From positions 2,457,637-2,521,636 of the forward strand of contig OZ240221.1 in assembly GCA_965197675.1 (NCBI GenBank): 64,000 nt of DNA, written 5' to 3'. Positions 1 through 14,349 of the stretch are shown here, piece after piece. Under the pieces are notes generated by a model that had not been told where the DNA came from, did not search any database, and was given only the letters and a program-made list of their open reading frames with translations. Origin of the DNA: Dehalococcoidia bacterium. GTDB lineage: Bacteria; Chloroflexota; Dehalococcoidia; Plut-88900. Position 1 is the stretch's first letter. Every line of letters begins with the position of its first letter. The translations under genes and the position numbers were made by a program.

Positions 1-53
1 CAAATCCTGACTCAGACGGGCGTGTCACAAGCGCGTCGCGAGAGGGTTGGGCA

Positions 54-536
54 ATGTGGTCTGCGTTCACTATGGAGAAACGACAAGAGTTCCGTAAGCG
101 GTGGGATGAACTTGCTGCCTTGAAATGCGATGCCATGTTGGAGAGGGATCTCATCGCTCGACAGATAAACGATAGCGGAGGTTCTCGAGAGGCGCCAGTC
201 TTTGATCTCGGCGTCAGGCGTGGCGAGCGCCTACGCTTTTCCAATGCAGTACAGCGGCGGCGTCTTGCGGCATACCGGGCGATACGACTATCGGAAGTGA
301 CAGGACTGCGCCCGGCTATCGCCGCTAGTATCCTGAAACTCGCGTCAGCTGAGATAGCGAGCACCAGTCCAGAGCTTGCAGTGCGTCTTGTTCTGACTAC
401 CTGCACCTACGAAAACGACGAGACTATCCAGAACGTCTTGTCACGGACTCGAATTGCCCTCATGTCAGTTGACTTAGTGCAGCAACTGGTGACGGAATGC
501 ACCAATCTTGTCGAGTACGGAGTCCGTCGGGGATGA
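54..536 (+). CDS. Hypothetical protein. The reading frame is open back to position 3, so the gene may start upstream of the window.
   Basis: ORF from ATG at 54. No stop codon in frame between position 3 and 54. No recognisable motifs. Confidence 0.4.
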   Translation: MWSAFTMEKRQEFRKRWDELAALKCDAMLERDLIARQINDSGGSREAPVFDLGVRRGERLRFSNAVQRRRLAAYRAIRLSEVTGLRPAIAASILKLASAEIASTSPELAVRLVLTTCTYENDETIQNVLSRTRIALMSVDLVQQLVTECTNLVEYGVRRG

Positions 537-566
537 GTTGAGCGAATACGAGTCGCCATTGAGGTC

Positions 567-2090
567 TTGTCCAGACTTGTTCTGCGACTTGATCTCGACT
601 CGGTACTGGTCGTTTTCGACAAAGCACTGAAGTATTGCCCCAGCAATCAGGACAAGGCTTTGTCTAATGTCTTGGTTTTCTCTTCCCTGTGGAACCTCTT
701 GAGAAGATCATGGGAGGCATTGCCTCTAGATCGCCGGGCTGAGCGAGTTCTTGACATTCTAAGTGCGCCCATTGTTGGCATCGACGGATTCCAAGCACAA
801 TTCGAAAACCGGCGCCCAGACCCCGGGAACTTGCTGCGCGGAGATTCCGAACCGCTGCTACCGGAACGTGCCAACGGCAACGAGGAACGTTGGCAAGCAG
901 TGGTAAAGCTGCTGATACTTAGCTTAGGCGCAGTGGGTGCTGCGCGTGGGAGGGCGGCTAGGAGACTCCTCCCCGTGACGTCACGAAATCTGTTGACTAA
1001 AGAGGAGTTATCCCAAATCGGCAAGGCTCTCTGGGCAAAGGAGCACACTTCTGACGAGGGCCTACCAGAGAACACTGACCTTTATGACTGGACATTTCTT
1101 GTTTTGCCCGAACCGAAACTTGGTCTGGCAGACAAACGTTTTCGGCTCAAGTGGCTATCTGTAGATCCCGCCAAACTCCAACACAGCGCCTCCAGTGCCG
1201 GGGGAATCACTACAGTGAGTTTTCCGTACGAACCTGCTGATCCGGCCAGACTCGAAGATACGCTCTGCAACGTGGGGAATGCCTTCTCCATTTCAAGGGA
1301 CCGTGGGGGTGCATTCGGACTTAGTAGTCAAGAACGCAAACACATCCTGGATCTTGTTTCCCTTTGGGCCAAGGCCGATGTCCCGTCGTACTCCTTCCAA
1401 CTTATGCAGGGTATGGCACGGAAACCCACATTCCTGGCCCTCGAAGGACTGGTGTTGATCCTGGCTGAGGCAGAGGTTCCTGAATCGGTTGGCGAAGACC
1501 TATTCGGGAAACTCAAGAAACTGACCGAGTCGGGTATTCCAGGTTTTGGACTTATACATGGGTTAGTCAAGACAATCCCAGACCGCTTTGACGAACTCCA
1601 GACTTGGCTGAGGATGGGATTGGTGTCCGATGATGCTGCTCTAGTTGCGAGCGCTATGTCAGGTTTGCGTTCCTGGCTGAAAGCATCGGTTGATACAGGA
1701 GCATCGCTTCGTCGTCCTCCAGATGACTTGCTGCGTGAGATCGGCTTGATGATCAGTTCCCGCAGGAGTGTCGCACTCCCACAAGCACTTCAGCTTGCCA
1801 GGTGGGTGTTCGATGAAGGAACATCAGCGCATCGGGAGAGGATGCTCCCCTTAGTATTGCAGGGCCTAAGCTATCTCGCCGAGGAACTAAAATACGACCG
1901 TGAACGCGATCCGGAGGGAATCGCTGACATGCCATTGCTGCGATGGCTATGTGTTCAACTCGCACAGTCAATGGCGAAAGGTGGTTTCAGAGACGAACCG
2001 GCTGTTGAACTCTGGTTGAACCTCGGCAAGGGAGACCCGCTTCCCGAGATTCGATATGCTGTGCCGCCATCGGCTTTTCCCGAAAAGTAG
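567..2090 (+). CDS. Hypothetical protein, 507 aa, no recognisable domain.
   Basis: Long ORF starting 31 bp after the previous ORF on the same strand, likely co-transcribed. No P-loop or other signature seen. Confidence 0.5.
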   Translation: MSRLVLRLDLDSVLVVFDKALKYCPSNQDKALSNVLVFSSLWNLLRRSWEALPLDRRAERVLDILSAPIVGIDGFQAQFENRRPDPGNLLRGDSEPLLPERANGNEERWQAVVKLLILSLGAVGAARGRAARRLLPVTSRNLLTKEELSQIGKALWAKEHTSDEGLPENTDLYDWTFLVLPEPKLGLADKRFRLKWLSVDPAKLQHSASSAGGITTVSFPYEPADPARLEDTLCNVGNAFSISRDRGGAFGLSSQERKHILDLVSLWAKADVPSYSFQLMQGMARKPTFLALEGLVLILAEAEVPESVGEDLFGKLKKLTESGIPGFGLIHGLVKTIPDRFDELQTWLRMGLVSDDAALVASAMSGLRSWLKASVDTGASLRRPPDDLLREIGLMISSRRSVALPQALQLARWVFDEGTSAHRERMLPLVLQGLSYLAEELKYDRERDPEGIADMPLLRWLCVQLAQSMAKGGFRDEPAVELWLNLGKGDPLPEIRYAVPPSAFPEK

Positions 2091-2360
2091 CCCACCTGCG
2101 TGGAATCGAACCCTGTGCAACTTCTCTGAATACGTTAGTATTACAAGTAGCCATGTGAGGGGCGTTGCCCCAAAGGTTTCACTTAGTCTCTATCTGGTAT
2201 TCCTCTGCCGAAAAATCACAACTTTACAACCAAATCAAAACTTCTGTGTACAGTCTCCTTTGGCCGACCAACATGCACTAGAACCGATCATTTGTGCGGA
2301 TGTGGTGGTAACAAATGTGGGACATTATGGTCATAACCCACTAATTTATAGGGGAGTAAT

Positions 2361-2379
2361 AATCCCACCCTCTCCGCCA
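2361..2379 (+). repeat. 19-bp exact direct copy of the 3' end of tRNA-Ser (AATCCCACCCTCTCCGCCA). Att-site-like remnant.
   Basis: Identical to 8573..8591, the T-arm 3' half plus acceptor 3' strand plus CCA of the tRNA-Ser at 8502..8591. Confidence 0.7.
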
Positions 2380-2564
2380 GCGATGAATTCTTCGTCGTGA
2401 AGAGGCAACGGGGACAAATCGAATTGGATCGCTTATGGAGCACCATTATCGTTTGGAAAAGCGCTGATCCGTTTTGAGGATCGAGAAATCACCCACGCGA
2501 CCCTCGAATCACGGATGGCTTACTCGGCTAATGTGCTGCCATCTGACCTGTATGTAGGTCTTCA

Positions 2565-3452
2565 CTACCCATCTTGGTTTGTCAGAAACTCGTCTCGCCA
2601 CTTTGCGTAAGCGTCTTGGTCGAGAACATCGGCAATCAACTTGGATAGGTCTTCAGTAAAGGCCAACTTCTCCGTATTTTCCCTCTGTCTTTGGCTGTGG
2701 AGGACTTCATAAACTGCCCTAACGGCAGCTCCAAAGGTGGCGTGGCCCTTCTGCTTGATCGCAACACCAAGCGATACTAGATATTCGGTATCTTCAAGCT
2801 CGGGTGAAGCGGTTCCCAAGATTATGGGCAGAGAAGTTGCTGATCGCAGTGCTTCTAACTCTCGTCGAGATTCAACATCCACCAGGAAGATGGCGTCTAC
2901 CCCTGCTGTGGAATAAGCCCTTACTCGCCCTACAGTTGGATCGAGTCCTTCCGCTCCAAGCGCATCTGTCCTTCCGACGATTACCAACGAAGGATCGGTC
3001 CGTGCGCTCACCGCCGCTCTCAGTTTGCCGACCATTTCCGGGATTGAAATGAACTTCTTGACCTGGGGCGCTCCAAAACGTGCTGGGAGATCCGTGTCCT
3101 CTATAGTCAGCGCCGACACACCCGAGGCTTCCAAATCTCTCACAGTGCGCATTACGTTGAGGGCGTTACCATAACCGTGGTCTGCGTCCACCATCAGGCT
3201 TAATCGGCTGACTCGAGTTATTCGCTTTACCAGGTCTGCTAGCTCTGTGATCGTGATCAAGGTGATATCGGGAGCTCCCAAAATCACCGCCGAAGCAATC
3301 GAGCCTCCCAACATTCCAATCTCATAGCCCAGAAGATCGGCAATACGAGATGACGTAGGATCAAAAACCGACGCCGGCTGAATACACTCAGGCTGTGCCA
3401 GGCATTGACGAAACCGTTTTCTTGCATCAGTGGTGGACATCTTTGATGACAT
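2565..3452 (-). CDS. PEP mutase/isocitrate lyase superfamily protein (methylisocitrate lyase / carboxyvinyl-carboxyphosphonate phosphorylmutase-like), divergent.
   Basis: MVDADHGYGNALNV, ALTIEDT and GRTDA motifs are typical of the ICL/PEPM fold. The K-R-C-G-H signature is replaced by ARFGAP. Confidence 0.65.
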   Translation of the reverse strand: MSSKMSTTDARKRFRQCLAQPECIQPASVFDPTSSRIADLLGYEIGMLGGSIASAVILGAPDITLITITELADLVKRITRVSRLSLMVDADHGYGNALNVMRTVRDLEASGVSALTIEDTDLPARFGAPQVKKFISIPEMVGKLRAAVSARTDPSLVIVGRTDALGAEGLDPTVGRVRAYSTAGVDAIFLVDVESRRELEALRSATSLPIILGTASPELEDTEYLVSLGVAIKQKGHATFGAAVRAVYEVLHSQRQRENTEKLAFTEDLSKLIADVLDQDAYAKWRDEFLTNQDG

Positions 3453-3490
3453 TTGCTGGACTACTGTTGTTTCCTGGTGGGTGAGCTCAC

Positions 3491-5200
3491 TTAACGACTG
3501 TCACCGGACGAGAACCGCTCCTTGGGTGTTAGCTGAGTATGGGTAACTGCCTCGGGATGCTCGTAGGGAGTAAAAGCCTGTGTGGTTGAGACGGCGTGAG
3601 GGTCGCTTATCACGTTTATTACCGCCGGCTTACCCGATGCGAAGGCGCGCTCCAGGGCGGGGCGTATCTGGTCCGGCTTGTCTACGTACTCGCCATGGGT
3701 CCCCAGCGCTTCACCCAGCTTGTCGTAGCGCTGCTCCGGCCCTATATATACCCATGGTTTGCGGGGTTGTCCCTTCGGTGTTGCAGCCCATCCTCCATTG
3801 ACGTTGACCACGGTAACCACAGGCAACCCGTGCCTAACCGCAGTGTCCAGGTTGATGGCGTTGATGCCGAAGGATCCATCGCCGTGCAGCACCAGGGTCT
3901 TCTTATTGGGTTTGGCCGCTTGTGCACCTATGCCGAAGGGCAGCCCCACCCCCATACACCCGGACCCACCAGAGTTGAGCCTGTGCCCAGGCTCGTAGGT
4001 GGGTATGGCCTGTCTCCCGAAGTTGAGAGTCTCATGGCCGTCCACAACCAGAATGGCATCTTTGGGCAGGAAGTCCCTCACCTCCTTCATCAGCCTCAGG
4101 GGATGTATGGGCACCTGGTCCGAGTTGAGAAGCGGCTCCGACTTCTCGGCATTGGCAGCATCCTTGGCCGCCAGCTTCTGTATCCAGGGTGAGCCCTTCT
4201 TGTTGGAGAACTTCTGCTCCTTGGCCTCCTGGGTCAGCTGTTGGAGCACCATCTTGGCATCCCCCACTATCCCCACATCCACAGGCCTGTTGTGGCCTAT
4301 CTCCTCCCTATCCGTGTTCACCTGTATGAACTTCATCTCCGGGGAGAAGCGAGGCGCCTGCATGTACTGCCACACCCAGTTGTTGCGGGTCCCTATAGAA
4401 ATAGCTACGTCCGCCTCTCTGAAGGCCAGAGACCGGGCAGCCAGGAAGGAGAGGTCGTGGTCTTCGGGAATGACACCTCTGCTCTGAGGTGTGGTGTAGA
4501 AGGGTATGCCAGTGGTCTCAACAAACTCCCGAAGCTCCTTCCACGCCTTGGACCAGAACACCCCTGTGCCGGTCAGCACCACAGGGCGCTCCGCATTCGC
4601 CAGCATCTCTACAGCCCTCTTCACCAGGTCCGGCTCCCCCATGGGCCTGGCATCGGTGCGGGAGTTGCTGGGGTAGTAGACCTCGTCCTCTTCCACCTCC
4701 TGATACAGGATGTCCCCGGGAAGGTCCAGATATACAGGGCCCGGCCGGTTGCCCCAGCACTTGCGGAAGGCCACGCTAACCAACTCCGCCATCCTCCTCG
4801 CAGAGTTGGCCTGACCCACCCACTTGGTGATGGGCTTCATGAGACCCACCTGGTCAACCTCTTGAAAGTCCTCCCAGTGGGTGAGCTGTGCGTTGCTGGA
4901 GCCTCCCAAGGCTATCACCGGACATGCATCTGTCATCGCTGTGACGATGCCCGTTACCAGGTTAGTGGTGCCCGGGCCTGAGCAGGCAGCGCATACGCCC
5001 GCCTCACCCGTTACCCTGCTCCACCCGTGGGCCATCATGGCCGCACCCTGCTCGTGGCGGGCATCGATTAGCCGCATACCCAGCTGTTGACACTCGTGGT
5101 AGAAGTCCTCCATGGGCCCGCCAGACAGAAAGAACATGGTGGACACACCCTCGTTCTTCAGCGCCTTCGCCAGGACCATATTTCCCGTTACCTTTGCCAT
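3491..5200 (-). CDS. Thiamine-pyrophosphate-dependent enzyme, acetolactate-synthase-large-subunit family.
   Basis: N-terminal TPP-pyrimidine domain (GVSTMFFLSGGP...HEQGAAMMAHGW). C-terminal GDGSFG...N TPP-binding motif. 569 aa. Confidence 0.8.
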   Translation of the reverse strand: MAKVTGNMVLAKALKNEGVSTMFFLSGGPMEDFYHECQQLGMRLIDARHEQGAAMMAHGWSRVTGEAGVCAACSGPGTTNLVTGIVTAMTDACPVIALGGSSNAQLTHWEDFQEVDQVGLMKPITKWVGQANSARRMAELVSVAFRKCWGNRPGPVYLDLPGDILYQEVEEDEVYYPSNSRTDARPMGEPDLVKRAVEMLANAERPVVLTGTGVFWSKAWKELREFVETTGIPFYTTPQSRGVIPEDHDLSFLAARSLAFREADVAISIGTRNNWVWQYMQAPRFSPEMKFIQVNTDREEIGHNRPVDVGIVGDAKMVLQQLTQEAKEQKFSNKKGSPWIQKLAAKDAANAEKSEPLLNSDQVPIHPLRLMKEVRDFLPKDAILVVDGHETLNFGRQAIPTYEPGHRLNSGGSGCMGVGLPFGIGAQAAKPNKKTLVLHGDGSFGINAINLDTAVRHGLPVVTVVNVNGGWAATPKGQPRKPWVYIGPEQRYDKLGEALGTHGEYVDKPDQIRPALERAFASGKPAVINVISDPHAVSTTQAFTPYEHPEAVTHTQLTPKERFSSGDSR

Positions 5201-5252
5201 GTTACCTCCCTATGTTCACACGCCGCTAAAAGTCTGGAAAATGTTTGCTGAT

Positions 5253-6143
5253 CTAGCGCGCACTCCTGGGCGTCCAGCTATCGACTACAAGCCTTTCTGG
5301 AAGAAGTTGCGGGACCGATCCCGTTGTTGCATATTCGTAGAGAGTTGCGACATAGATGCCTCTCAAAGCTGCCGTAATCAAAATGAGTGCTCCCAGAGCA
5401 GTCACCCCCAATGCTACCGCTATCACCACTCCCGCCGGCTGAGGGATGATGACCCCAACTACAACAACCACCACAACTATGGGAATCGCCAGGATAATCA
5501 CCATAATATCGAATCCGAAATTGCTTACAAGCTGCTCTCCCCACGTCTTCCGTAAGAGGGATGCAGACCGCTTGATAGCCTGAATGGGCCCTATTCCCTC
5601 GGCTACCAGAACAGGGATCACCAGATAAGTGATGACAGACCAGGCAACCTGAGCTACCAGGCCCACGATGAGAAGGACAATCATGGCTGCACCTCCGTGC
5701 TGGGAAAGCCCTCTCCTCGCAAATTTATTTATGGCGTAAAAGATCAACGACACTATAGCCGAGATAGCAGCCCAGCCGATGATTCCCATCAGGTTTCGGT
5801 TCGCGACTTGAAATCCGTCCCTCAGGGTTGGGTCTCCACCCTGTAACCGAATACGAGCAGCGCCGATCAAGGCCGCATTGAAGTAGATGATAATGAAATA
5901 GCTTATGAAGTAGCATATCCCCAATATCACGTAATCCGCAGGGATCATTTCGAACCCCTGATCCGCAGAGTCGGCAACCCTATCTACCAGCCCAGTTGCG
6001 AAGATCAGAGTGAAAGTGAAAATCAGGCTGATAGTCGATAGAAGTGGGAAGAGCATTAGCTCTTTGTCATGTTGCAGTATCCTCCAGCAGACTTTGAACA
6101 GTTCCCAGCTTCTTCCGATTGTAGCGAACATTTGACACCTCAC
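5253..6143 (-). CDS. Hypothetical polytopic membrane protein.
   Basis: Multiple hydrophobic helices and a VVVVVVGVII run. No catalytic motif. Confidence 0.45.
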   Translation of the reverse strand: MRCQMFATIGRSWELFKVCWRILQHDKELMLFPLLSTISLIFTFTLIFATGLVDRVADSADQGFEMIPADYVILGICYFISYFIIIYFNAALIGAARIRLQGGDPTLRDGFQVANRNLMGIIGWAAISAIVSLIFYAINKFARRGLSQHGGAAMIVLLIVGLVAQVAWSVITYLVIPVLVAEGIGPIQAIKRSASLLRKTWGEQLVSNFGFDIMVIILAIPIVVVVVVVGVIIPQPAGVVIAVALGVTALGALILITAALRGIYVATLYEYATTGSVPQLLPERLVVDSWTPRSAR

Positions 6144-6842
6144 TAGGGATCTCTCATTCTACAGGATTTCCTCTATTTTATCAGGAGGTAGAAACTGCAC
6201 ACTCAGGCTCCCACTGGTGGATGGGCATTGGCTGTGTCGGATTGTGGGAATTGATCTGACTCAACGCCACCTGCAAACCGGCTATGAAATTATACACGCG
6301 CCTCATCGGGGCCATACCGCCGTGGAATTGTCCGACCAGACAGCACCGAAAACGTGAAGGCTGCTAATAGAGAAGGTTCATACATTCTATAGTAGGTTTT
6401 ATGTTAAGTTATGCATGCCAGTCAAGTTGACAAGCTGTAATGGGAATCTTATGCTTCCCCTGTTCTCATAGGGTTGGTATTATCGAGGTCCACGGAAGGA
6501 GTCAAGGCGGCATGGTGAGCTTTTCGCCGCACATCAGATTCTCTCCATCGTCAACATTTCGTTCATCCTCTTCACGGTGGTTCTCGGTACTAGCGCCCTT
6601 CAGCACCAACCCAGTAGTCCATCGACCTGTGAAGACCAGGGAGTAACCGTATCTGATCATCCAGTGGCGCCCTTCAGTCAAAAATGAGAGGATTCGAAGC
6701 TCAGACCGTCATAAGTGCCGTACAAGTCGTTTTCAGTAAGGCCGAGGCGCTCCTTAAACGGACTATCTAGAGAATCTTCAGATGCATTTCTGACCCCAGG
6801 GATATATAGATTTAGGCAACAGTATCGGTGTACAGCATGTAG

Positions 6843-8081
6843 TTGAAGCATCAACCGATAAGTATTCCACGCCACCGTTGGCTCATAATCGGGTCTCTGA
6901 CCTGGGTGGGAGCAATCCAACTTACGATCTTCCTCTCCATTGGATTGTTGCTCCCCGACATATCCGAAGAGCTAGGCCTATCTCCCTCGGAACAAGGCTG
7001 GTTAGGCGCATCTGTGCTGCTGGCCAATCTGTTTTTGGCCATCCCGCTCGGCACCTTGCTATCTAGATTCCGGCCCTGGCGAATAGTCATGTTAATGGCG
7101 ATAGGGGCTGGTGTGTTCTCCCTAATGCAGGGTTGGTCCCCGACGATAGCCTGGTTGCTCTTGGGACGCATAGGCGCGGGACTCTGCTTCACTGGCACCA
7201 TAGCCCCAAGAGCATTGCTATTTCAGCAGTGGACTCCTCCGCATCGCCTACCCATCACCAATGGAGTCTGGTTCGCCGGGGTAGATTCAGCTTTGGGGGT
7301 CGCCTTCTTCATGACGCCGTTTCTCCTCGACTGGCTGGGTGGATGGCGGGAGGTGTTTTACCTCTGGGGTGGGATTGCATTAGCGGGCGCCGTGATATGG
7401 CTCATATTCGGTAAGGAGCGATCTACTAGAGAATACCAGGAAAGGATACGCTCACAGACCAGGACTCCACTTGTCGCCTTTCTTCGGTACCCAGAGTTCT
7501 GGGTGCTTGGTATTGGCATGGCGGGGTCCCAGATTGGATACTCCGCCATTCACATCTTCTGGCCCACTTTGGCCGAGAAGAACCTTGGCCTTTCCCTTAC
7601 CACTGCAGGGGCAGCTCTGGGTATATCAGCCATGGGCGCAGGCTTTATCGACTTTTTCGTAAATGCAGTGCCGACGCTAGTACGACGCCAGCCCTTGGTG
7701 CTGGCTATTAGCGGGTTGGCTACGGTTGGGGTATACGTTGGACTGCTCTATTCCGAGTCCGAGGCACTAACTATTCTCTTAGGCCTGGCCGAGGGGATTT
7801 CTCGGGCATATTTCCCAGTTTTGTTCGTAATGATATTTCTGATGCCAAACATCAAGCCACGAGAGGTTAGTGTAGGAATAGCCTTTATCGAGACCTCTAT
7901 TTGGGTTGGATCAGCCATCGGCCCCCTGCTTGTTGGATTCATCCACGAGACGACCGGTGATCTGCGGCTCGGACTCCTGATTGCTTCCTTTTCCCCGATT
8001 AGCCTGTTGGTACCTGCGGTGTTTCTCCAGGTTCGCAGGTGGTCTCCAATGGCTCCGACCAGAGGAGACCCCGCCGACTGA
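6843..8081 (+). CDS. MFS-family transporter.
   Basis: About 12 predicted TM segments in two six-helix halves with a central loop (GKERSTREYQER). Confidence 0.7.
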   Translation: MKHQPISIPRHRWLIIGSLTWVGAIQLTIFLSIGLLLPDISEELGLSPSEQGWLGASVLLANLFLAIPLGTLLSRFRPWRIVMLMAIGAGVFSLMQGWSPTIAWLLLGRIGAGLCFTGTIAPRALLFQQWTPPHRLPITNGVWFAGVDSALGVAFFMTPFLLDWLGGWREVFYLWGGIALAGAVIWLIFGKERSTREYQERIRSQTRTPLVAFLRYPEFWVLGIGMAGSQIGYSAIHIFWPTLAEKNLGLSLTTAGAALGISAMGAGFIDFFVNAVPTLVRRQPLVLAISGLATVGVYVGLLYSESEALTILLGLAEGISRAYFPVLFVMIFLMPNIKPREVSVGIAFIETSIWVGSAIGPLLVGFIHETTGDLRLGLLIASFSPISLLVPAVFLQVRRWSPMAPTRGDPAD

Positions 8082-8165
8082 GTCCAGGCCACATCAGAGC
8101 TTGGCAGTTGTTTTTTTCACGTTGACACCACTGCCGAAATCCCCCACCTACAACACTCCTCTCCT

Positions 8166-8193
8166 GGATTCCCGTGTCAAGCACGGGAATGAC
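8166..8193. repeat. Dispersed hairpin repeat, family A (GGATTCCCGTGTCAAGCACGGGAATGAC).
   Basis: Perfect 9-bp stem ATTCCCGTG/CACGGGAAT with a 5-nt loop. Related copies at 63114..63141 and 63534..63561. Variants at 30270..30296 (inverted) and 63876..63903. Confidence 0.6.
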
Positions 8194-8229
8194 GATATGG
8201 GAGGTGAGGGCACCCTTCGACAAGGTCTG

Positions 8230-8400
8230 GGTGAGCGGAGACGCCTCAACCTTCGCTCATGGTGAGCTTAGAGTTTATCCTGATCCCACCGGGGGAACTA
8301 CATGGGCGGGGCTGATACCCAGTCGGCCCCGCTCATACCCTTATCGAGTAGGGGGCAGGCTCTAACCCTCCTCCCAAGGGAAAAGGAGCCGTGGAATCCA
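8230..8400. repeat. Composite MITE-like dispersed repeat (family C core GGTGAGCGGAGACGCCTCA...CTCATGGTGAGCTTAGAGTTTATCCTGA plus downstream modules).
   Basis: Homologous blocks at 47129..47290 in the same orientation, 30060..30234 inverted, and a partial block at 58358..58415 inverted. Confidence 0.6.
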
Positions 8401-8501
8401 GGGCTGATGAACTGTTTGACATCGATGAGTCCAGAAGAGTAATCTACGAGCAAGTGACTCATTTCGTCCGCCAGGACACCGGAGCATAGGCCATTCTTCT
8501 T

Positions 8502-8591
8502 GGAGAGGTGCTGGAGTGGCCGATCAGGCGCGCCTGGAGAGCGCGTAGGGGGGCAACCCTCTCGTGGGTTCGAATCCCACCCTCTCCGCCA
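8502..8591 (+). tRNA. tRNA-Ser, anticodon GGA, type II with long variable arm, CCA encoded.
   Basis: Acceptor stem GGAGAGG/CCTCTCC. D-stem CTGG/TCAG. Anticodon stem CGCGC/GCGCG with loop CTGGAGA. Long variable arm. T-arm GTGGG-TTCGAAT-CCCAC. Discriminator G followed by CCA. Confidence 0.9.
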
Positions 8592-8757
8592 TTATGCAAT
8601 CCTTTTTCATCTCCTAAATCTCTGGTTTCTAACACAGAGGTTATGCATTCTCGCCATACATGGAAATTATATTATTCATAGCCCCCTATCCAGGCTGGCT
8701 GATACTTACTTTCTGAAGCTATGAAAATGGGGTTGCCCATGAAGAAGCCTAGCTTTA

Positions 8758-9096
8758 GTGGGCGTCAACATCGCTATCAAGATCCCCAAAGTTCACTACG
8801 AAAAGACCATAGCCTTCTATAGAGATGTTCTGGGGCTTCCGGTCGTCCAAGAGAAGGGTGGGGGCACAGGCAGGTCATACTCGTGTAAATACGGACCCAA
8901 TAAGCTGTGGTTCGACCTGGTTGAGCACTATAGCCAGACCGACGTTTGGCTGGAGCTGGAGGCCGACGACATAGACTTGGCAGCCAAACACCTCCAAGAT
9001 AGCAACGTACCCCTCAGGGACGAAATGGAGTCACTGGAAGGGCTGAAGGCTCATTGGATCTCTAGCCCAGTGGGAACCGTTCATTTACTGATTTAG
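8758..9096 (+). CDS. VOC/glyoxalase-bleomycin-resistance family small protein.
   Basis: GTG-started 112-aa ORF. YRDVLGLPV motif typical of the VOC fold. Confidence 0.5.
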   Translation: MGVNIAIKIPKVHYEKTIAFYRDVLGLPVVQEKGGGTGRSYSCKYGPNKLWFDLVEHYSQTDVWLELEADDIDLAAKHLQDSNVPLRDEMESLEGLKAHWISSPVGTVHLLI

Positions 9097-9176
9097 AACG
9101 GATAGCTCTCATTCCCGTCAGACCCGTGGCTATTACTCCTGTTCCCTTTTTAATGCCTGTGCTATTATGATTCTAT

Positions 9177-10289
9177 ATGGAAGACCTTAAATATTGGCTT
9201 GCTTTCAACCGCATTAAGGGCATCGGCCGGGCCAGGTTTTCCTCTCTGGAAACCCACTTCGGCTCCCTCCGAGAGGCCTGGAACGGCAGCCTCACAGACC
9301 TCAAGGAAGCCGGCTTAGATCAGCGCTCCATCAACAACATCGTTGCGAATAGACCCCACATAGATCCCGACGATGAGATGGAGAAGCTGGCCGAAAACAA
9401 TATTAGGGCTTTGACCTGGCATGATCCAGAATATCCGCCTCGCCTGAAAGAGGTCCACGATCTGCCCCCTGTACTGTACGTACGAGGCTCTTTGGAGAGT
9501 CAGGACGAATGGTCTATCGCCGTGGTGGGGACACGCCACGCCACGGCCTACGGACGAGAGATGGCAGAAGTGCTGGCGGAAGACCTGGGTTCTAACAGGA
9601 TTACCGTAATTAGTGGACTCGCCCGGGGCATCGATTCTCTGGCTCATAAGGCTGCTCTCAAAGCTGGAGGCAGGACTATAGCAGTCCAGGCGTGCGGATT
9701 GGATATAGTCTATCCTGCTGAGCACCTTAATCTAGCCAGAGAAATCATCGAATCTGGAGCACTGGTCAGCGATTATCCTCCTGGAACTCGACCAAAATCA
9801 GACCACTTCCCCAGACGGAACAGGATAATGAGCGGGATGGCCCTGGGAACATTGGTCATAGAAGCTGGTGAGTCCAGTGGCGCCCTCATCACAGCCGACT
9901 TAGCCTTGGAACAGAATCGAGAGGTCTTCGCCATACCAGGGAGCGTCCTATCAGCCAAGAGCCGTGGCACCAATCGACTGATTAGCGAAGGGGCGAAACT
10001 GGTATCTCGCGTGGAAGACATATTGGAGGAGCTAAACCTCACTATGGTCCCTCAGCAGATGGAGATGAAGGAACTGATACCGGTGACGGACATGGAAACG
10101 TCAATCATCAAGCATCTATCTCGTGAGCCCCTCCACATAGACGAGGTACGGCGCAGGGCCCATCTACCCATAGCCACCATAAGCAGCGCCTTGGCCATGA
10201 TGGAGTTGAAAGGTATGGTAAAACAAGTTGGGGCCATGAACTACGTGTTGACCAGAGAAGTACAAGCCGACTATCAAGTGGCAGTATAG
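9177..10289 (+). CDS. dprA: DNA processing protein DprA/Smf.
   Basis: Rossmann-like DprA core (VVGTRHATAYG...ISGLARGIDSLAHKAAL...IAVQACGLD) plus a C-terminal winged-helix-like tail. Confidence 0.85.
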   Translation: MEDLKYWLAFNRIKGIGRARFSSLETHFGSLREAWNGSLTDLKEAGLDQRSINNIVANRPHIDPDDEMEKLAENNIRALTWHDPEYPPRLKEVHDLPPVLYVRGSLESQDEWSIAVVGTRHATAYGREMAEVLAEDLGSNRITVISGLARGIDSLAHKAALKAGGRTIAVQACGLDIVYPAEHLNLAREIIESGALVSDYPPGTRPKSDHFPRRNRIMSGMALGTLVIEAGESSGALITADLALEQNREVFAIPGSVLSAKSRGTNRLISEGAKLVSRVEDILEELNLTMVPQQMEMKELIPVTDMETSIIKHLSREPLHIDEVRRRAHLPIATISSALAMMELKGMVKQVGAMNYVLTREVQADYQVAV

Positions 10290-10301
10290 AAAGAGATCGA
10301 T

Positions 10302-12563
10302 ATGCCGAAAGAGCTAGTGATCGTAGAGTCTCCGGCCAAAGCTCGCACCCTGGATAAGATTCTGGGCAAGAGATACGAAGTCCTGGCCTCTATGGGACAC
10401 GTCCGAGACTTGCCCCAGTATCGTTTCGGAGTAAACGTAGCCAAAGACTTCACCCCGACGTACGAAGTCCCCAAAGACAAGAAGGCGATAGTGAAACGGA
10501 TGACGGAGGTCGCCAAGAAGGCATCCTCCGTCTACCTTGCCACCGATCCAGATCGGGAAGGGGAGGCCATCTCGTGGCATCTACTCCAAGCCTCCAAGAT
10601 CAAGGACGTGCCCATCAAAAGAGTGGTATTCCACGAGATTACAGACAAGGCCATAAAGGAGGCCTTCAAGCATCCCAGAGACGTCGATTTGGACCTGGTA
10701 AATGCCCAGCAGGCTCGCCGGGTCCTGGATCGAGTGGTGGGTTACCGGCTCAGCCCCCTCCTCTGGAGAAAGATACAGAAGGGGCTATCCGCTGGGAGAG
10801 TCCAGTCCGTGACCCTGCGAATGATAGCTGATAGGGAAGAAGAGATTCAAAGCTTCGTTCCCACGGAGTACTGGACCATCGAGGCCATGCTCAACAAAAG
10901 GGCAAAGGACAACCAAGCCAAGTTCAAAGCGGTGCTGACCGGATACAAGGGAAGCAGGAAAAAGCTTACCATTCCCATTCAGGAAGAATCCGACAAGATC
11001 TTGGCAGACCTGGATGAGGCCAAGTACTCCGTCGAAAAGGTGGAGAAGAAGGACACTCGCCGCCAGCCTGCCCCTCCCTTCACCACCAGCACTTTGCAGC
11101 AGGAGGCATGGCGAAAGCTAAGGTTCTCCTCCAAGCGAACCATGGCTATAGCACAGCAGCTATACGAGGGTCTTTCCATCGGGTCGGAGGGGCAAGTAGG
11201 GCTTATAACCTACATGCGCACCGACTCCACCAACGTATCGATGGACGCCAGGCGCGAGGTTAGAGAGTTCATCGGGCGGAAATATGGGGCCCAGTTCATA
11301 CCTCCATCACCGAGAGCATTCAGCAAGAAATCCAAAGGCGCTCAAGAGGCCCACGAGGCCATTCGGCCAACCCAGGTTACCAGAGAGCCTGCAGTCACGA
11401 AGGGCTACTTGACTCTGGAACAGCAAAGGCTCTACGAGTTGATCTGGAAGCGCATGGTGGCCAGCCAGATGACCAATGCCGTCATAGCTTCCACCGCAGT
11501 ATCCATAGGCGCTGTCAGCGCTGTCTCCAACAACCAGTATATCTTCAAGGCTACTGGGTCGGTGACTACTTTCCTTGGGTTCCTGGTGCTGTACAGCGAG
11601 GATGCGGACGAGAAAGCAGATAAGGATGGTCAGGGCCATCTACCAGATCTGTCAGCAGGAGACGAACTTAACTGCCACAAGTTGGAATCATCCCAGCACT
11701 TCACTCAGCCTCCACCTCGCTATACTGAAGCCTCCCTAATAAAAGCGCTGGAAGAGAACGGCATCGGTCGACCTAGCACCTATGCTCCGATCCTCTCCAC
11801 GATCCAAGACAGGGAATATGTAAAGAGAGAGAAGGGAAGGTTCACTCCCACCGACCTGGGCTCCACGGTAAACTCCCTGCTGAAGGAACACTTCCCTGAC
11901 ATCGTGGATTTGAGATTCACTGCCGGGATGGAAGAAGAGCTGGACGAGGTGGCAAGAGGTGAACGGGGTTGGGTGCCTCTTGTGCGTGACTTCTACGAAC
12001 CCTTCCAGGACATGATACTAAAGGCCAACGAAGCCATCCCCGATGAGGCTGCCGGCATAGTCTGCGATCTGTGTGGACGTCCAATGGTAGTGCGGGCGGG
12101 TCGTAGAGGGCGCTTCATCGCCTGCAGCGGGTACCCGGAGTGTAAGAACACCAAATCCATACCGGGGTCCGAGAAGGAGACTGAGGAGCTGGAAGAGATA
12201 CACGAGACCTGTAACCAATGCGGACGTCCCATGACCCTCAAGATGGGCCGTCTTGGTAAGTTCATCGCTTGTACCGGCTTCCCTGAGTGCAAGAACACCA
12301 AGCCCTACAAGACAGGTGTGCACTGCCCGGACTGTGCCGGAGATCTAGTGGAGAAGATGAGCAAGAAGGGTCGTACGTTTTATGGATGCTCCAACTACCC
12401 TACTTGTAACTTCGCTGTGAACCAGAAGCCTCAATCTCGGCCTTGCCCCAATTGCAGGGGGCTGATGGTAGCTTCAGGCAGCGACAGTGCTCGATGTATC
12501 AAGTGCAAGAGCCGCCACAAGCTGGAGGAGATCAAGGAGGTAGAAGAGGCAGTAGCCGTATAG
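10302..12563 (+). CDS. topA: DNA topoisomerase I.
   Basis: TOPRIM N-terminus (LVIVESPAKARTL). Topoisomerase IA core. Multiple C-terminal C4 zinc ribbons (CDLCGRPM...CSGYPECKN repeated). Confidence 0.9.
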   Translation: MPKELVIVESPAKARTLDKILGKRYEVLASMGHVRDLPQYRFGVNVAKDFTPTYEVPKDKKAIVKRMTEVAKKASSVYLATDPDREGEAISWHLLQASKIKDVPIKRVVFHEITDKAIKEAFKHPRDVDLDLVNAQQARRVLDRVVGYRLSPLLWRKIQKGLSAGRVQSVTLRMIADREEEIQSFVPTEYWTIEAMLNKRAKDNQAKFKAVLTGYKGSRKKLTIPIQEESDKILADLDEAKYSVEKVEKKDTRRQPAPPFTTSTLQQEAWRKLRFSSKRTMAIAQQLYEGLSIGSEGQVGLITYMRTDSTNVSMDARREVREFIGRKYGAQFIPPSPRAFSKKSKGAQEAHEAIRPTQVTREPAVTKGYLTLEQQRLYELIWKRMVASQMTNAVIASTAVSIGAVSAVSNNQYIFKATGSVTTFLGFLVLYSEDADEKADKDGQGHLPDLSAGDELNCHKLESSQHFTQPPPRYTEASLIKALEENGIGRPSTYAPILSTIQDREYVKREKGRFTPTDLGSTVNSLLKEHFPDIVDLRFTAGMEEELDEVARGERGWVPLVRDFYEPFQDMILKANEAIPDEAAGIVCDLCGRPMVVRAGRRGRFIACSGYPECKNTKSIPGSEKETEELEEIHETCNQCGRPMTLKMGRLGKFIACTGFPECKNTKPYKTGVHCPDCAGDLVEKMSKKGRTFYGCSNYPTCNFAVNQKPQSRPCPNCRGLMVASGSDSARCIKCKSRHKLEEIKEVEEAVAV

Positions 12564-12572
12564 CTGGTCTAG

Positions 12573-13384
12573 GGCCTGTTAACACTATTAGTTGAATTAT
12601 GATACAATTCTGGCATGGAAATAACCGAAGTCCAGTTTCAACGTATCGCGCCCCATCTCCCAGTGCAGCGGGGCAATGTCAGCCTTTCGAACCTGCGAGT
12701 GCTCAACGCAATCTTGTACGTCGCCGAGCATGGTTGCAAATGGCGGGGGTTGCCGGCCCGGTTTGGCAACTGGCATACCATCTACACCCGCATGAACCGC
12801 TGGTCCAAGAGCGGCGTACTGGACCGGATATTCGAACACCTCCAGAAGGAACAGATGGTGCGCATCAAGCTGGAGGCGGTTTCGATGGACAGCACTACCG
12901 TCAAGGTGCATCCCGACGGCACGGGTGCGTTAAAAAAAACGGACCCCAGTCCATCGGCAAGTCCCGCGGCGGCTGGACCACCAAGATTCATATGGTTGCC
13001 GCGGATGCTCGAACAGCTATAACCTTTTCCCTCTCTCCAGGACAGGCCCACGACGCGCCGGAAGGGCGCAAGCTGCTGCACCATCTGGGGCCTCAGCATG
13101 GGAACCCGTCTCTGCTGATGGACCGGGCATACGAGGGAAACGAGACCCGCCAGTTGGCGTTAGCGCTGGGGTTCACACCTGTCGTTCCGCCGCTGAAGAG
13201 CCGGATTGACCCTTGGGAATACGACCGGGAGATATACAAGAAGCGCAACGAAATCGAGCGGCTATTCCGTCGGCTGAAGGGATTTCGCCGCATCTTCTCT
13301 CGCTTTGACAAGCTCGACGTACTCTTCCTGGGATTCATCCTATTCGGGTTCATTATCGATGCACTACGTTAGTGTTAACAGGCC
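12573..13384 (+). mobile_element. IS5-family (IS427/IS1031-like) insertion sequence, 812 bp.
   Basis: 15-bp terminal inverted repeats GGCCTGTTAACACTA (12573..12587 and 13370..13384, the right end as reverse complement). Flanking TAG at both ends (12570..12572 and 13386..13388), consistent with a 3-bp target duplication. Two overlapping transposase frames. Confidence 0.8.
12615..13372 (+). CDS. IS5-family DDE transposase, made by a -1 programmed frameshift fusing orfA (12615..) to orfB (..13372).
   Basis: A8 slippery run at 12932..12939. The orfA frame reads ...GTGALKKTDP. The -1 frame continues KKNGPQSIGKSRGGWTTKIHMVAADA...YKKRNEIERLFRRLKGFRRIFSRFDKLD, the conserved IS5 C-terminus. Confidence 0.75.
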
Positions 13385-13404
13385 TTAGCCGGTCCCCTCA
13401 AGCG

Positions 13405-14349
13405 ATGAAACGCCATCTCAAAAACTTCATTCACCACCTCCGATGGGAGCGATACGTCTCTCCCTACACGGCCCGCAACTACGAGACCGATCTGCGCCCC
13501 TTCTTCGAGTATCTTCAGGCTGAAAACGTAGAAGACCTGAAGTCAGTCGATAGAAAACTTCTCCGCGGGTACGTTGCTTGGCTGGCGCAGGATAGAACTA
13601 TCCCCTTGAGCCAGGGGACTGTCAAGCACGGCCACGAAATGGCCAGCGTAGCCCGTAAAATCAGCGTCCTCCGCTCCTTTTATAGATACCTGGAAAAGGA
13701 AAAGGTGGTGGAAAAGAACCCTGTTTCCAGATTGTCTCTTCCCAAGCTTGGGAAGAGAATCCCCTCCTTCCTTTCCCAACAGGAGGCGACTCAGCTAGTA
13801 GAGGCTCCGGAGAAGTCCACACCAATAGAATTGCGAAATAGGGCACTGCTGGAGCTACTTTATGCAGCAGGTCTCAGGGTTAGCGAACTAGTAGGACTTG
13901 ATGTGGTTGACGTAAACCTGAACACCAGAGAGATTCTGGTCTTCGGTAAAGGCTCCAAGGAGCGTCAGGCGCTGATGGGCGAGCCTGCTATAGAAGCTCT
14001 CCGTCACTATCTCAGCCATGGACGAAGGCTGTTACTCGACGGCCAAAGGACTCAAGCCCTGTTCATCAACAGGTATGGAAAAAGGCTATCTGCTCGAAGT
14101 GTGCAGAACATAGTCAGAAGATACGCCCTGAAAAAAGGCGTTGGACAAAGCGTCCACCCTCACACCTTTAGACACAGCTTCGCCACTCACCTTCTGGACG
14201 GCGGCGCCGATCTTAGAGTCGTCCAAGAGCTGCTGGGGCACGAAAGCCTCAGCACTACCCAAATCTACACACACATGACAACGGCCGAAGCAAGAAAAAC
14301 CTACCTGAAAGCCCATCCACGGGCAGGAAAAGTTGAGAGCAAGCGGTGA
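13405..14349 (+). CDS. xerC: Tyrosine recombinase XerC/XerD. The start is placed at ATG 13405 just outside the IS right end; the ORF-track start at 13372 lies inside the IS.
   Basis: N-terminal SAM-like domain. Catalytic R..HTFRHSFATHLL...LLGH...TQIYTH motifs. Confidence 0.85.
   Translation: MKRHLKNFIHHLRWERYVSPYTARNYETDLRPFFEYLQAENVEDLKSVDRKLLRGYVAWLAQDRTIPLSQGTVKHGHEMASVARKISVLRSFYRYLEKEKVVEKNPVSRLSLPKLGKRIPSFLSQQEATQLVEAPEKSTPIELRNRALLELLYAAGLRVSELVGLDVVDVNLNTREILVFGKGSKERQALMGEPAIEALRHYLSHGRRLLLDGQRTQALFINRYGKRLSARSVQNIVRRYALKKGVGQSVHPHTFRHSFATHLLDGGADLRVVQELLGHESLSTTQIYTHMTTAEARKTYLKAHPRAGKVESKR

What the first reader, a model, noticed from the sequence alone, without database searches (positions are those of the whole stretch)
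1..2379. Two hypothetical genes end at an exact 19-bp copy of the tRNA-Ser 3' end: probable right-hand att site of an island extending beyond the window
2361..2379 (AATCCCACCCTCTCCGCCA) is identical to the last 19 nt (8573..8591) of the tRNA-Ser(GGA) at 8502..8591, and in the same orientation. Such partial tRNA 3'-end repeats mark the distal junction of tRNA-integrated elements.

The repeat lies on the 5' side of the intact tRNA in this window. The simplest reading is that the island lies to the left, with cargo being the edge-truncated ORF at 54..536 and the 507-aa orphan ORF at 567..2090. That island would be anchored on another tRNA-Ser with the same 3' end, upstream of the window. Both cargo proteins lack recognisable domains, and the first ORF is open to the window edge.
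Basis: partly seen in the sequence, partly recalled or inferred. Interest (0 to 1): 0.55.

Follow-up and report, generated by a model that had tools for sequence, protein, structure and literature searches.

The report
Right end of a tRNA-Ser genomic island
The 19-base tRNA fragment is the right-hand junction of a mobile genomic island inserted into a tRNA-Ser(CGA) gene just left of the window, and its last cargo gene is a broken copy of a DSR2-type anti-phage gene; this is an ordinary, well-understood kind of element.

Summary

- **The repeat.** The 19-mer at 2361-2379 exactly copies the 3' end of a tRNA-Ser. Only two copies occur in 64 kb.
- **Empty sites.** Two ~99%-identical relatives (L006, L009) carry an intact tRNA-Ser(CGA) at exactly this position. 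Their homology to the window begins at the first base of the 19-mer.
- **Occupied site.** A third relative (L005/L007) has the same fragment plus the same 270-nt arm (window 2091-2360). 84.5 kb away it has an intact tRNA-Ser(CGA) followed 159 nt later by a P4-type integrase and an AlpA gene.
- **Integrase in the source.** The source contig encodes an integrase 97% identical to that one. Relatives of this integrase sit 130-167 nt downstream of a tRNA in 44 of 67 metagenome loci, and 41 of those tRNAs are tRNA-Ser.
- **The cargo.** The 'two hypothetical genes' are one DSR2-like defence gene (SIR2 domain plus HEAT-like solenoid, about 1208 aa). It is split by a TGG-to-TGA change at 534-536, at a tryptophan invariant in 15 of 15 homologs.
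- **Not seen.** The island's left end in the source genome could not be read.

This is a new member of a known kind, of low interest.

The parts
1..536 (+). Middle part of a DSR2-like defence gene. It is open at the window edge; the gene starts about 1.5 kb left of the window. It ends at a premature TGA at 534-536.
   Evidence: Window 3-533 is 100% identical to the C-terminal 177 aa of P0075 (690 aa, PF13289 SIR2_2), which lies on the 2,882,203-bp source contig. PADLOC Dsr2 matches P0075 at E 4.9e-127.
534..536 (+). In-frame TGA nonsense codon that splits the DSR2-like gene.
   Evidence: Both ORFs are in one frame with a single stop between them. The stop aligns with a Trp that is invariant in 15 of 15 homologs, so TGG became TGA. 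TGA is an ordinary stop in this genome, as in the MFS and XerC-like genes.
537..2090 (+). C-terminal HEAT-like alpha-solenoid part of the DSR2-like gene. The source annotation calls it as a 476-aa ORF from the TTG at 660.
2091..2360 (+). Non-coding right arm of the island (P arm of attR).
   Evidence: It is 95.9% identical to the arm next to the 19-mer in L005, where the neighbouring cargo differs. It has no similarity to the empty-site genomes (20-24% positional identity, i.e. random).
2305..2322 (+). Candidate arm-type integrase binding site, GTGGTAACAAATGTGGGA.
   Evidence: The motif GTGGTAACANNNGTGGGA occurs once in the 64-kb window. It also occurs once in the L005 right arm and once in the L007 left arm (27 nt before the integrase start), all in the same orientation, and nowhere else in the 9 loci then held. 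The motif was derived post hoc, so its function is inferred.
2361..2379 (+). attR core: the displaced 3' end of tRNA-Ser(CGA). It covers the last 3 nt of the T-loop, the 3' strands of the T-stem and acceptor stem, the discriminator base and CCA.
   Evidence: Exact 19-mer. Homology to L006 and L009 starts at base 2361, where those genomes have the 3' end of an intact tRNA-Ser(CGA).
2380..2564 (+). Chromosomal flank (B') between attR and the first core gene.
   Evidence: It is 96-97% identical to the sequence directly after tRNA-Ser(CGA) in L006 and after the fragment in L005. L009 has the identical first bases GCGATGAATTC after its intact tRNA.
2565..3452 (-). First core gene to the right of the island: a PEP mutase / isocitrate lyase family protein.
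   Evidence: Pfam PF13714 at E 5e-36. It is syntenic at about 99% in L005, L006 and L009, and at 81.5% in L004.
8502..8591 (+). tRNA-Ser(GGA). It is not part of the island; it is a paralogous tRNA that shares its last 29 nt with tRNA-Ser(CGA).
   Evidence: ARAGORN. Alignment with the L004 tRNA-Ser(CGA). It is present at the same place in both the empty-site and occupied relatives, and core genes (glyoxalase, dprA, topA) follow it.

Best explanation
Window 1-2379 is the right-hand end of an integrative genomic island. A P4-type tyrosine integrase inserted it into the 3' end of a tRNA-Ser(CGA) gene that lies left of the window.

**How it works.** Recombination between the island's attP and the tRNA's last 19 nt rebuilt the tRNA at the far (left) junction. 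It left the original 19-nt tRNA 3' end stranded at 2361-2379 as attR. Sequence from 2380 rightward is ordinary chromosome. The 270 nt to the left of attR (2091-2360) are the island's conserved right arm and contain one candidate arm-type integrase site.

**The cargo.** The last cargo gene is a roughly 1208-aa DSR2-like anti-phage sirtuin, with an N-terminal SIR2 NADase domain and a HEAT-like sensor solenoid. In this genome it is broken by a TGG-to-TGA nonsense mutation, so it is most likely inactive.

**Shown versus inferred.** Shown: the 19-mer, the exact breakpoint against two empty-site genomes, the shared arm, the attL/integrase structure in a 98.8%-identical relative, the presence of a 97%-identical integrase on the source contig, and the nonsense codon. 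Inferred: that the source's own left junction still has the tRNA and integrase, the island's size there, the function of the arm site, and loss of DSR2 function.
For: - **Repeat.** The 19-mer is exact and occurs only twice in the window. Across the 6 loci then held it occurs only at tRNA-Ser genes and at the homologous attR.
- **Empty site L006.** Its reverse complement aligns with window 2361-13281 at 99.06%. An intact tRNA-Ser(CGA) ends where the 19-mer lies.
- **Empty site L009.** Its tRNA-Ser(CGA) is followed directly by GCGATGAATTC, the same bases as window 2380 onward. Window 2361-2828 aligns at 98.5%.
- **Occupied site, right end.** L005 aligns with window 2090-12572 at 98.8%. It has the same fragment and arm but different cargo.
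- **Occupied site, left end.** L007 is from the same contig as L005. It shows core genes, then tRNA-Ser(CGA), 159 nt, an integrase (Arm-DNA-bind_3 / Phage_int_M / Phage_integrase) and AlpA. The two repeats lie 84.5 kb apart by record coordinates.
- **Source genome.** Integrase P0274, 97% identical to the L007 integrase, lies on the 2,882,203-bp contig that also holds P0001 and P0075. The left-flank core genes P0249, P0238, P0243 and P0239 are also listed on a contig of that length.
- **Integrase family.** In 67 metagenome loci with integrase relatives, 44 have a same-strand tRNA 130-167 nt upstream, and 41 of those are tRNA-Ser.
- **DSR2.** PADLOC Dsr2 matches at E 4.9e-127 and 1e-10, and at 1.3e-152 over the full length of homolog P0003. 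The stop aligns with an invariant Trp, and the SIR2 motifs TTNWD and KLHGS are kept.
Against: - **Left end unseen.** The source genome's left flank could not be retrieved. Look-ups of its proteins return nothing, and it is absent from the genome collection. The tRNA-Ser(CGA) and integrase at its own left junction, and the island length, are therefore unseen.
- **No compositional signal.** GC is 0.53-0.55 in 1-2000, like the rest of the window.
- **DSR2 context.** The closest DSR2 homologs in other genomes are not next to a tRNA or this arm, so DSR2 is cargo rather than a signature of this island family.
- **DSR2 similarity.** Similarity to the experimentally studied B. subtilis DSR2 is limited to the SIR2 domain.
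Confidence: 0.9

Rival explanations
1. Relic junction. The 19-mer is a true attR, but the island in the source genome is decayed or rearranged. Its left end (tRNA-Ser(CGA) plus integrase) would no longer be contiguous, and the 97%-identical integrase would belong to another island copy elsewhere on the contig.
For: - The left flank is unseen.
- The cargo gene is already a pseudogene.
- Some genomes hold more than one integrase of this family; for example P0295 and P0299 are both listed with a 3,334,279-bp contig.
- The more distant relative L004 shows a degraded arrangement at this tRNA: 5.4 kb of unrelated genes, an ADH fragment and no detectable attR.
Against: - Only one integrase from the source contig appears among the top 120 hits, and it is the closest of all at 97%.
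- The right arm and core are intact and 96% identical to those of a relative whose island has both ends.
Confidence: 0.08
2. The island is the segment between the two 19-mers (2380-8572), delivered together with the tRNA-Ser(GGA).
For: Two direct copies of the 19-mer flank a 6.2-kb segment.
Against: - The geometry is wrong: islands lie 3' of the intact tRNA.
- The segment holds no integrase, only PEP mutase, a ThDP enzyme, DUF6159 and an MFS transporter.
- The whole segment is present at about 99% identity in the empty-site genome L006 and in the occupied L005; L009 confirms its first 449 nt before that contig ends.
- Most of it is present at 81.5% in L004.
Confidence: 0.01
3. The 19-mer is a chance match, part of a dispersed repeat, or a decayed tRNA pseudogene unrelated to any mobile element.
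For: None beyond the short length of the match.
Against: - Chance expectation is 0.05 even with 3 mismatches allowed.
- There are no further copies in the window, and in the loci checked it occurs only at tRNA-Ser 3' ends and at the homologous attR.
- The breakpoint with empty-site genomes falls exactly at the first base of the 19-mer.
Confidence: 0.01

Closest known systems
tRNA-targeting genomic islands and integrative elements with P4-type tyrosine integrases (the class surveyed by Williams 2002, Nucleic Acids Res; cited from my own knowledge)
   Same: - It integrates into the 3' end of a tRNA gene and regenerates the tRNA.
- A direct repeat of the tRNA 3' end marks the distal junction.
- In the relative, the integrase (Arm-DNA-bind_3, Phage_int_M and catalytic domain) lies directly downstream of the tRNA with an AlpA-type regulator beside it.
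- Cargo is variable.
- The crossover block starts in the T-loop and runs to CCA.
   Different: - The host appears to be an uncultured Dehalococcoidia-like lineage.
- The target is tRNA-Ser(CGA).
- The island in the relative is large (84.5 kb) and only 20 kb of it was seen, so whether it is conjugative, a prophage or non-autonomous is unknown.
DSR2, defence-associated sirtuin 2 of Bacillus subtilis (bioRxiv 10.1101/2021.12.14.472415; PMC10981675; PMC11850899)
   Same: - It is a single large protein with an N-terminal SIR2 domain that keeps the Asn and His motifs, followed by a long alpha-helical HEAT-like region.
- It matches PADLOC's Dsr2 profile over the full length.
   Different: - It is about 1208 aa rather than 1005 aa.
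- Outside the SIR2 domain there is no detectable sequence similarity or specific fold similarity to the solved B. subtilis protein.
- The gene is interrupted by a nonsense codon here.
Defence-gene hotspots inside integrative elements, such as P4-like satellites and defence islands of E. coli (Rousset et al. 2022; Hochhauser et al. 2023; cited from my own knowledge)
   Same: Near-identical strains carry different defence cargo at the same position next to a conserved element end. The window has DSR2-like; L005 has YopA_M, a CoiA-like protein, a PrlF/PIN pair, an Eco57I-like methylase and a ZacA-like protein.
   Different: Only two occupied variants were seen. Neither the exchange mechanism nor the defence function was tested.

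Membership tests
tRNA-integrated genomic island | Direct repeat of the tRNA 3' end at the distal junction | tested here: met
   The exact 19-mer lies at 2361-2379. It equals the 3' end of tRNA-Ser(CGA) in L004, L006, L007 and L009.
tRNA-integrated genomic island | Related genomes with an unoccupied site, in which the intact tRNA abuts the same flank | tested here: met
   L006 (99.06% over window 2361-13281) and L009 (98.5%) have tRNA-Ser(CGA) directly followed by the window's flank from 2380 onward.
tRNA-integrated genomic island | Intact tRNA at the proximal junction of this genome's island | not testable with these tools
   The left flank of the source contig was not retrievable. The feature is met in relative L007.
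tRNA-integrated genomic island | Site-specific integrase encoded next to the tRNA | tested here: inconclusive
   Met in relative L007, where the integrase starts 159 nt after the tRNA. The source contig encodes a 97%-identical integrase, P0274, but its position is unknown.
tRNA-integrated genomic island | Atypical base composition (supportive, not defining) | tested here: not met
   GC is 0.55 and 0.53 in the first two 1-kb windows (1-2000), against about 0.54 for the window as a whole.
P4-type (Arm-DNA-bind_3) tyrosine integrase clade that targets tRNA-Ser | Three-domain architecture and a tRNA immediately upstream | tested here: met
   P0274 matches PF13356, PF22022 and PF00589. In 44 of 67 relatives a same-strand tRNA lies 130-167 nt upstream, and 41 of those are tRNA-Ser.
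DSR2 (defence-associated sirtuin 2) | N-terminal SIR2 domain with catalytic Asn and His | tested here: met
   P0075 carries PF13289. The motifs TTNWD (residue 83) and KLHGS (residue 121) are conserved with homologs. The SIR2 region matches PDB DSR2 8k98 at E 9e-6. This part of the protein lies outside the window.
DSR2 (defence-associated sirtuin 2) | Full-length match to a DSR2 family profile | tested here: met
   PADLOC PDLC02184 Dsr2 matches P0075 at E 4.9e-127 (model 74-717), P0001 at 1e-10 (model 845-1186) and homolog P0003 at 1.3e-152 (model 76-1189).
DSR2 (defence-associated sirtuin 2) | C-terminal alpha-solenoid (HEAT-like) sensor domain | tested here: met
DSR2 (defence-associated sirtuin 2) | Specific similarity of the MID/CTD region to the characterised B. 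subtilis DSR2 | tested here: not met
DSR2 (defence-associated sirtuin 2) | Single uninterrupted ORF | tested here: not met
   A TGA at 534-536 replaces an invariant Trp.
DSR2 (defence-associated sirtuin 2) | NAD+ depletion triggered by a phage tail tube protein | not testable with these tools
   This needs an experiment.

The most novel reading that the evidence does not exclude
The conserved 270-nt right arm may mark a cargo-exchange hotspot of a very abundant family of tRNA-Ser islands in this Dehalococcoidia-like lineage. Near-identical strains carry either nothing, a DSR2-like gene, or a different defence set at the attR-proximal position. The split DSR2 might still act as a two-polypeptide system, with a SIR2-MID piece and a separate HEAT sensor piece. 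This would resemble the many natural homologs of about 930 aa that lack the SIR2 domain.
Probability: 0.12. Interest if true: 0.4.

Novelty: new member of a known kind. Interest (0 to 1): 0.2.

Why it matters
- **Annotation.** It fixes the annotation of this region. One island boundary is mapped to the base, one tRNA-Ser(CGA) integration site is defined, and one DSR2-like pseudogene replaces two 'hypothetical proteins'.
- **A natural trio.** It provides empty, occupied and differently loaded states of the same site in about 99%-identical uncultured genomes. This is useful for studying defence-gene turnover in a lineage that cannot be cultured.
- **No new mechanism.** It does not reveal a new mechanism.

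Tried and rejected
- **Reading the source contig to the left.** The look-up of encoding contigs returned nothing for six source proteins: the PEP mutase ORF, the ThDP enzyme, P0075, P0001, P0109 and P0249. The genome collection held only 59-64% DSR2 relatives. The left junction of the source therefore stays unseen.
- **DSR2 relatives as guides to the island.** L001-L003 and L008 have no tRNA, no 19-mer and no shared arm. DSR2 is movable cargo, not a marker of this island.
- **Extending L005 with a locus-derived protein.** It was solved instead through cluster members of the left-flank core gene.
- **Composition.** GC and skew show no island signal.
- **Rfam.** The gathering scan of 1-14000 found nothing.
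- **Viral contigs.** Only 44-46% integrase relatives were found, so there is no evidence that the element is a prophage.
- **L004 integrase fragment.** The 119-aa fragment 5' of its tRNA-Ser(CGA) is unrelated to P0274.
Full report
**Observation**

The 19-mer AATCCCACCCTCTCCGCCA is present exactly at 2361-2379 and at 8573-8591, both on the + strand. Allowing up to 3 mismatches gives no further copy in the 64-kb window; shuffles give a mean of 0.05 matches, and none of 100 reached two. ARAGORN finds a single tRNA in the window, tRNA-Ser(GGA) at 8502-8591. The ORFs at 54-536 and 567-2090 are as described, and the first is open to the window edge.

**What the two 'hypothetical genes' are**

Both ORFs lie in the same frame and are separated by one TGA at 534-536. 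A search of the protein database with the joined reading frame returned single proteins of 900-1210 aa that span the stop. It also returned two 100%-identical entries from one 2,882,203-bp contig, which is the source genome:
- P0075, 690 aa, with a SIR2_2 domain (PF13289). Its last 177 residues are window 3-533.
- P0001, 476 aa, corresponding to window 660-2090.

PADLOC's Dsr2 profile (1222 positions) matches P0075 at E 4.9e-127 (positions 74-717) and P0001 at 1e-10 (positions 845-1186). It matches the uninterrupted homolog P0003 at 1.3e-152 over positions 76-1189.

In an alignment with 15 homologs, the stop codon sits at a tryptophan that all 15 keep, so TGG became TGA. The SIR2 motifs TTNWD and KLHGS are intact. 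TGA is a normal stop in this genome.

Sequence similarity to the solved B. subtilis DSR2 is confined to the SIR2 domain (E 9e-6). A profile of the family finds no PDB entry. I therefore call the gene 'DSR2-like (PADLOC Dsr2 family)', about 1208 aa, inactivated or at least split by a nonsense mutation.

**What the 19-mer is**

The source genome itself could not be read beyond the window. The 90%-identity cluster of the neighbouring PEP mutase gene, however, contained proteins from other assemblies, and their contigs could be fetched. All comparisons below are in window orientation.

*Empty site L006* (ENA ERZ25072670). It aligns with window 2361-13281 at 99.06%. Homology starts at the first base of the 19-mer, and in L006 those 19 nt are the 3' end of an intact tRNA-Ser(CGA).

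*Empty site L009* (ERZ25067264). Its tRNA-Ser(CGA) is followed directly by GCGATGAATTC, the same bases as window 2380 onward. Window 2361-2828 aligns at 98.5%.

*Occupied site, right end: L005* (ERZ25072076, contig ctg245688). It aligns with window 2090-12572 at 98.8%. It has the 19-mer without a tRNA body and the same 270-nt stretch to its left (95.9% identical to window 2091-2360). Beyond that stretch it has different genes: YopA_M, a CoiA-like protein, a PrlF/PIN toxin-antitoxin pair, a 971-aa Eco57I-like methylase and a ZacA-like DUF6361 protein.

*Occupied site, left end: L007.* The gene that lies just 5' of the tRNA in L006 has a copy on the same contig as L005, and this gave L007. L007 reads: core genes, tRNA-Ser(CGA) at 11036-11126, 159 nt, a 382-aa integrase (Arm-DNA-bind_3, Phage_int_M, Phage_integrase), AlpA, IS110, a methyltransferase and a group II intron reverse transcriptase. 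From the record coordinates, the two 19-mers in that contig are 84.5 kb apart.

The four junctions form a textbook set:
- attB (L006, L009): tRNA - core - flank.
- attL (L007): tRNA - core - CTACACATTCC...
- attR (window, L005): ...GGGGAGTAAT - core - flank.

**Why the fragment matches the tRNA inside the window**

tRNA-Ser(GGA) and tRNA-Ser(CGA) share their last 29 nt. The tRNA-Ser(GGA) at 8502-8591 is a bystander:
- It is present in both empty and occupied relatives.
- It is followed by core genes (glyoxalase, dprA, topA).
- The 6.2 kb between the two 19-mers has no integrase and is conserved in L005 and L006, and as far as the L009 contig reaches.

**Evidence that bears on the source genome's own left end**

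The best database match to the L007 integrase is P0274. It is 97% identical and lies on a 2,882,203-bp contig, the same length as the contig that holds P0001 and P0075. The left-flank core genes of L006 also have cluster members on a contig of that length (P0249, P0238, P0243, P0239).

The integrase family is very common. The top 120 database hits are all at least 82% identical.

More distant relatives (34-64% identity) in JGI metagenomes show the same layout. Of 67 loci that include the integrase start, 44 have a same-strand tRNA 130-167 nt upstream (median 147). Of those 44, 41 are tRNA-Ser (GGA 21, GCT 14, TGA 4, CGA 2), 2 are tRNA-Ala and 1 is tRNA-Leu.

A motif, GTGGTAACANNNGTGGGA, occurs once in the window (2305-2322, 38 nt left of the core). 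It also occurs once in the L005 arm and once in the L007 left arm (27 nt before the integrase start), all in the same orientation, and nowhere else in the 9 loci then held. I propose it as an arm-type binding site for the Arm-DNA-bind_3 domain. This is an inference from a motif found post hoc.

**Mechanism**

*Shown.* An element is inserted at the 3' end of tRNA-Ser(CGA). The junction is precise to the base. A 19-bp identity block runs from the last three T-loop bases to CCA. Relatives show both the empty state and a complete occupied state with an integrase.

*Inferred.* The P4-type integrase catalysed attP x attB recombination within the 19 bp. This rebuilt the tRNA at attL and left the displaced 3' end at attR. 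The island carries defence cargo that differs between strains. The DSR2-like gene, if intact, would sense a phage protein through its HEAT-like domain and deplete NAD+ through SIR2, as described for DSR2 (bioRxiv 10.1101/2021.12.14.472415; PMC10981675). Here it is probably dead.

**Rivals**

- A relic junction whose left end has been lost or moved cannot be excluded without the source contig. I give it about 0.08.
- An island lying between the two 19-mers is excluded by the comparisons above.
- A chance or dispersed repeat is excluded by the same comparisons.

**Novelty**

This is a new member of a known kind. tRNA-targeting islands with P4-type integrases and defence cargo are well known, and DSR2-family genes are catalogued. 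Two features add mild interest: the natural series of empty, occupied and differently loaded sites in about 99%-identical uncultured genomes, and the abundance of this tRNA-Ser integrase clade. The lineage is probably Dehalococcoidia, judged from the record titles of the loci holding DSR2 relatives; this is an inference. Interest 0.2.

Noticed in passing
window 12573-13385: An insertion of about 813 bp relative to L005 carries ORF 12599-13372, a DDE_Tnp_1 transposase (IS5-like). It lies between topA and a XerC/D-like recombinase gene (13372-14349). It is present in L006 and absent in L005.
   Followed up: partly
window 6198-6814: A 618-nt stretch between the DUF6159 and MFS genes has no ORF of 100 aa or more and lies in a low-GC part of the window (GC 0.48 for 6001-7000). 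In the more distant relative L004 the same position holds a 6.5-kb block with two TelA genes, PspA and a two-component system. This could be a deletion scar or an insertion point.
   Followed up: no
proteins P0005, P0016, P0019, P0022 and others: Many DSR2-like homologs of about 910-1020 aa (most 925-937 aa) carry no SIR2 domain. PADLOC's Dsr2 model matches P0016 only from position 308 onward. These are SIR2-less relatives whose effector, if any, is unknown.
   Followed up: no
window 8502-8591: The Rfam gathering scan of window 1-14000 returned no match at all, not even for the tRNA-Ser that ARAGORN calls and that is conserved in L005 and L006.
   Followed up: no
L004 10865-16900: In an 84%-identical (PEP mutase) relative, tRNA-Ser(CGA) lies 5.4 kb from the PEP mutase gene. 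Between them are an amidohydrolase, an MFS transporter, a luciferase-like gene, a small HTH-like ORF and an ADH fragment, with no detectable attR. A 119-aa tyrosine-recombinase fragment unrelated to P0274 sits just 5' of the tRNA.
   Followed up: partly
L005 11636-20717 and L007 11286-20498: The 84.5-kb island of contig ctg245688 carries defence-like and mobile cargo at both visible ends. The L005 end has a ZacA-like DUF6361 protein (PADLOC E 1.6e-44), an Eco57I-like methylase, a PrlF/PIN pair and a CoiA-like protein. The L007 end has IS110, a mad2-like methyltransferase and a group II intron reverse transcriptase. The middle 64 kb was not seen.
   Followed up: partly
window 2380-2382 vs L006: The three bases after the core are GCG in the window, L005 and L009, but CCA in L006. 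This is a polymorphism of the attB flank and not a consequence of integration, since the empty site L009 also has GCG.
   Followed up: yes
window 2056-2400: A 114-aa ORF runs across the island arm and the att core. It has no Pfam hit, and the part of it left of the core is absent from the empty-site genomes, so it is almost certainly not a gene.
   Followed up: yes
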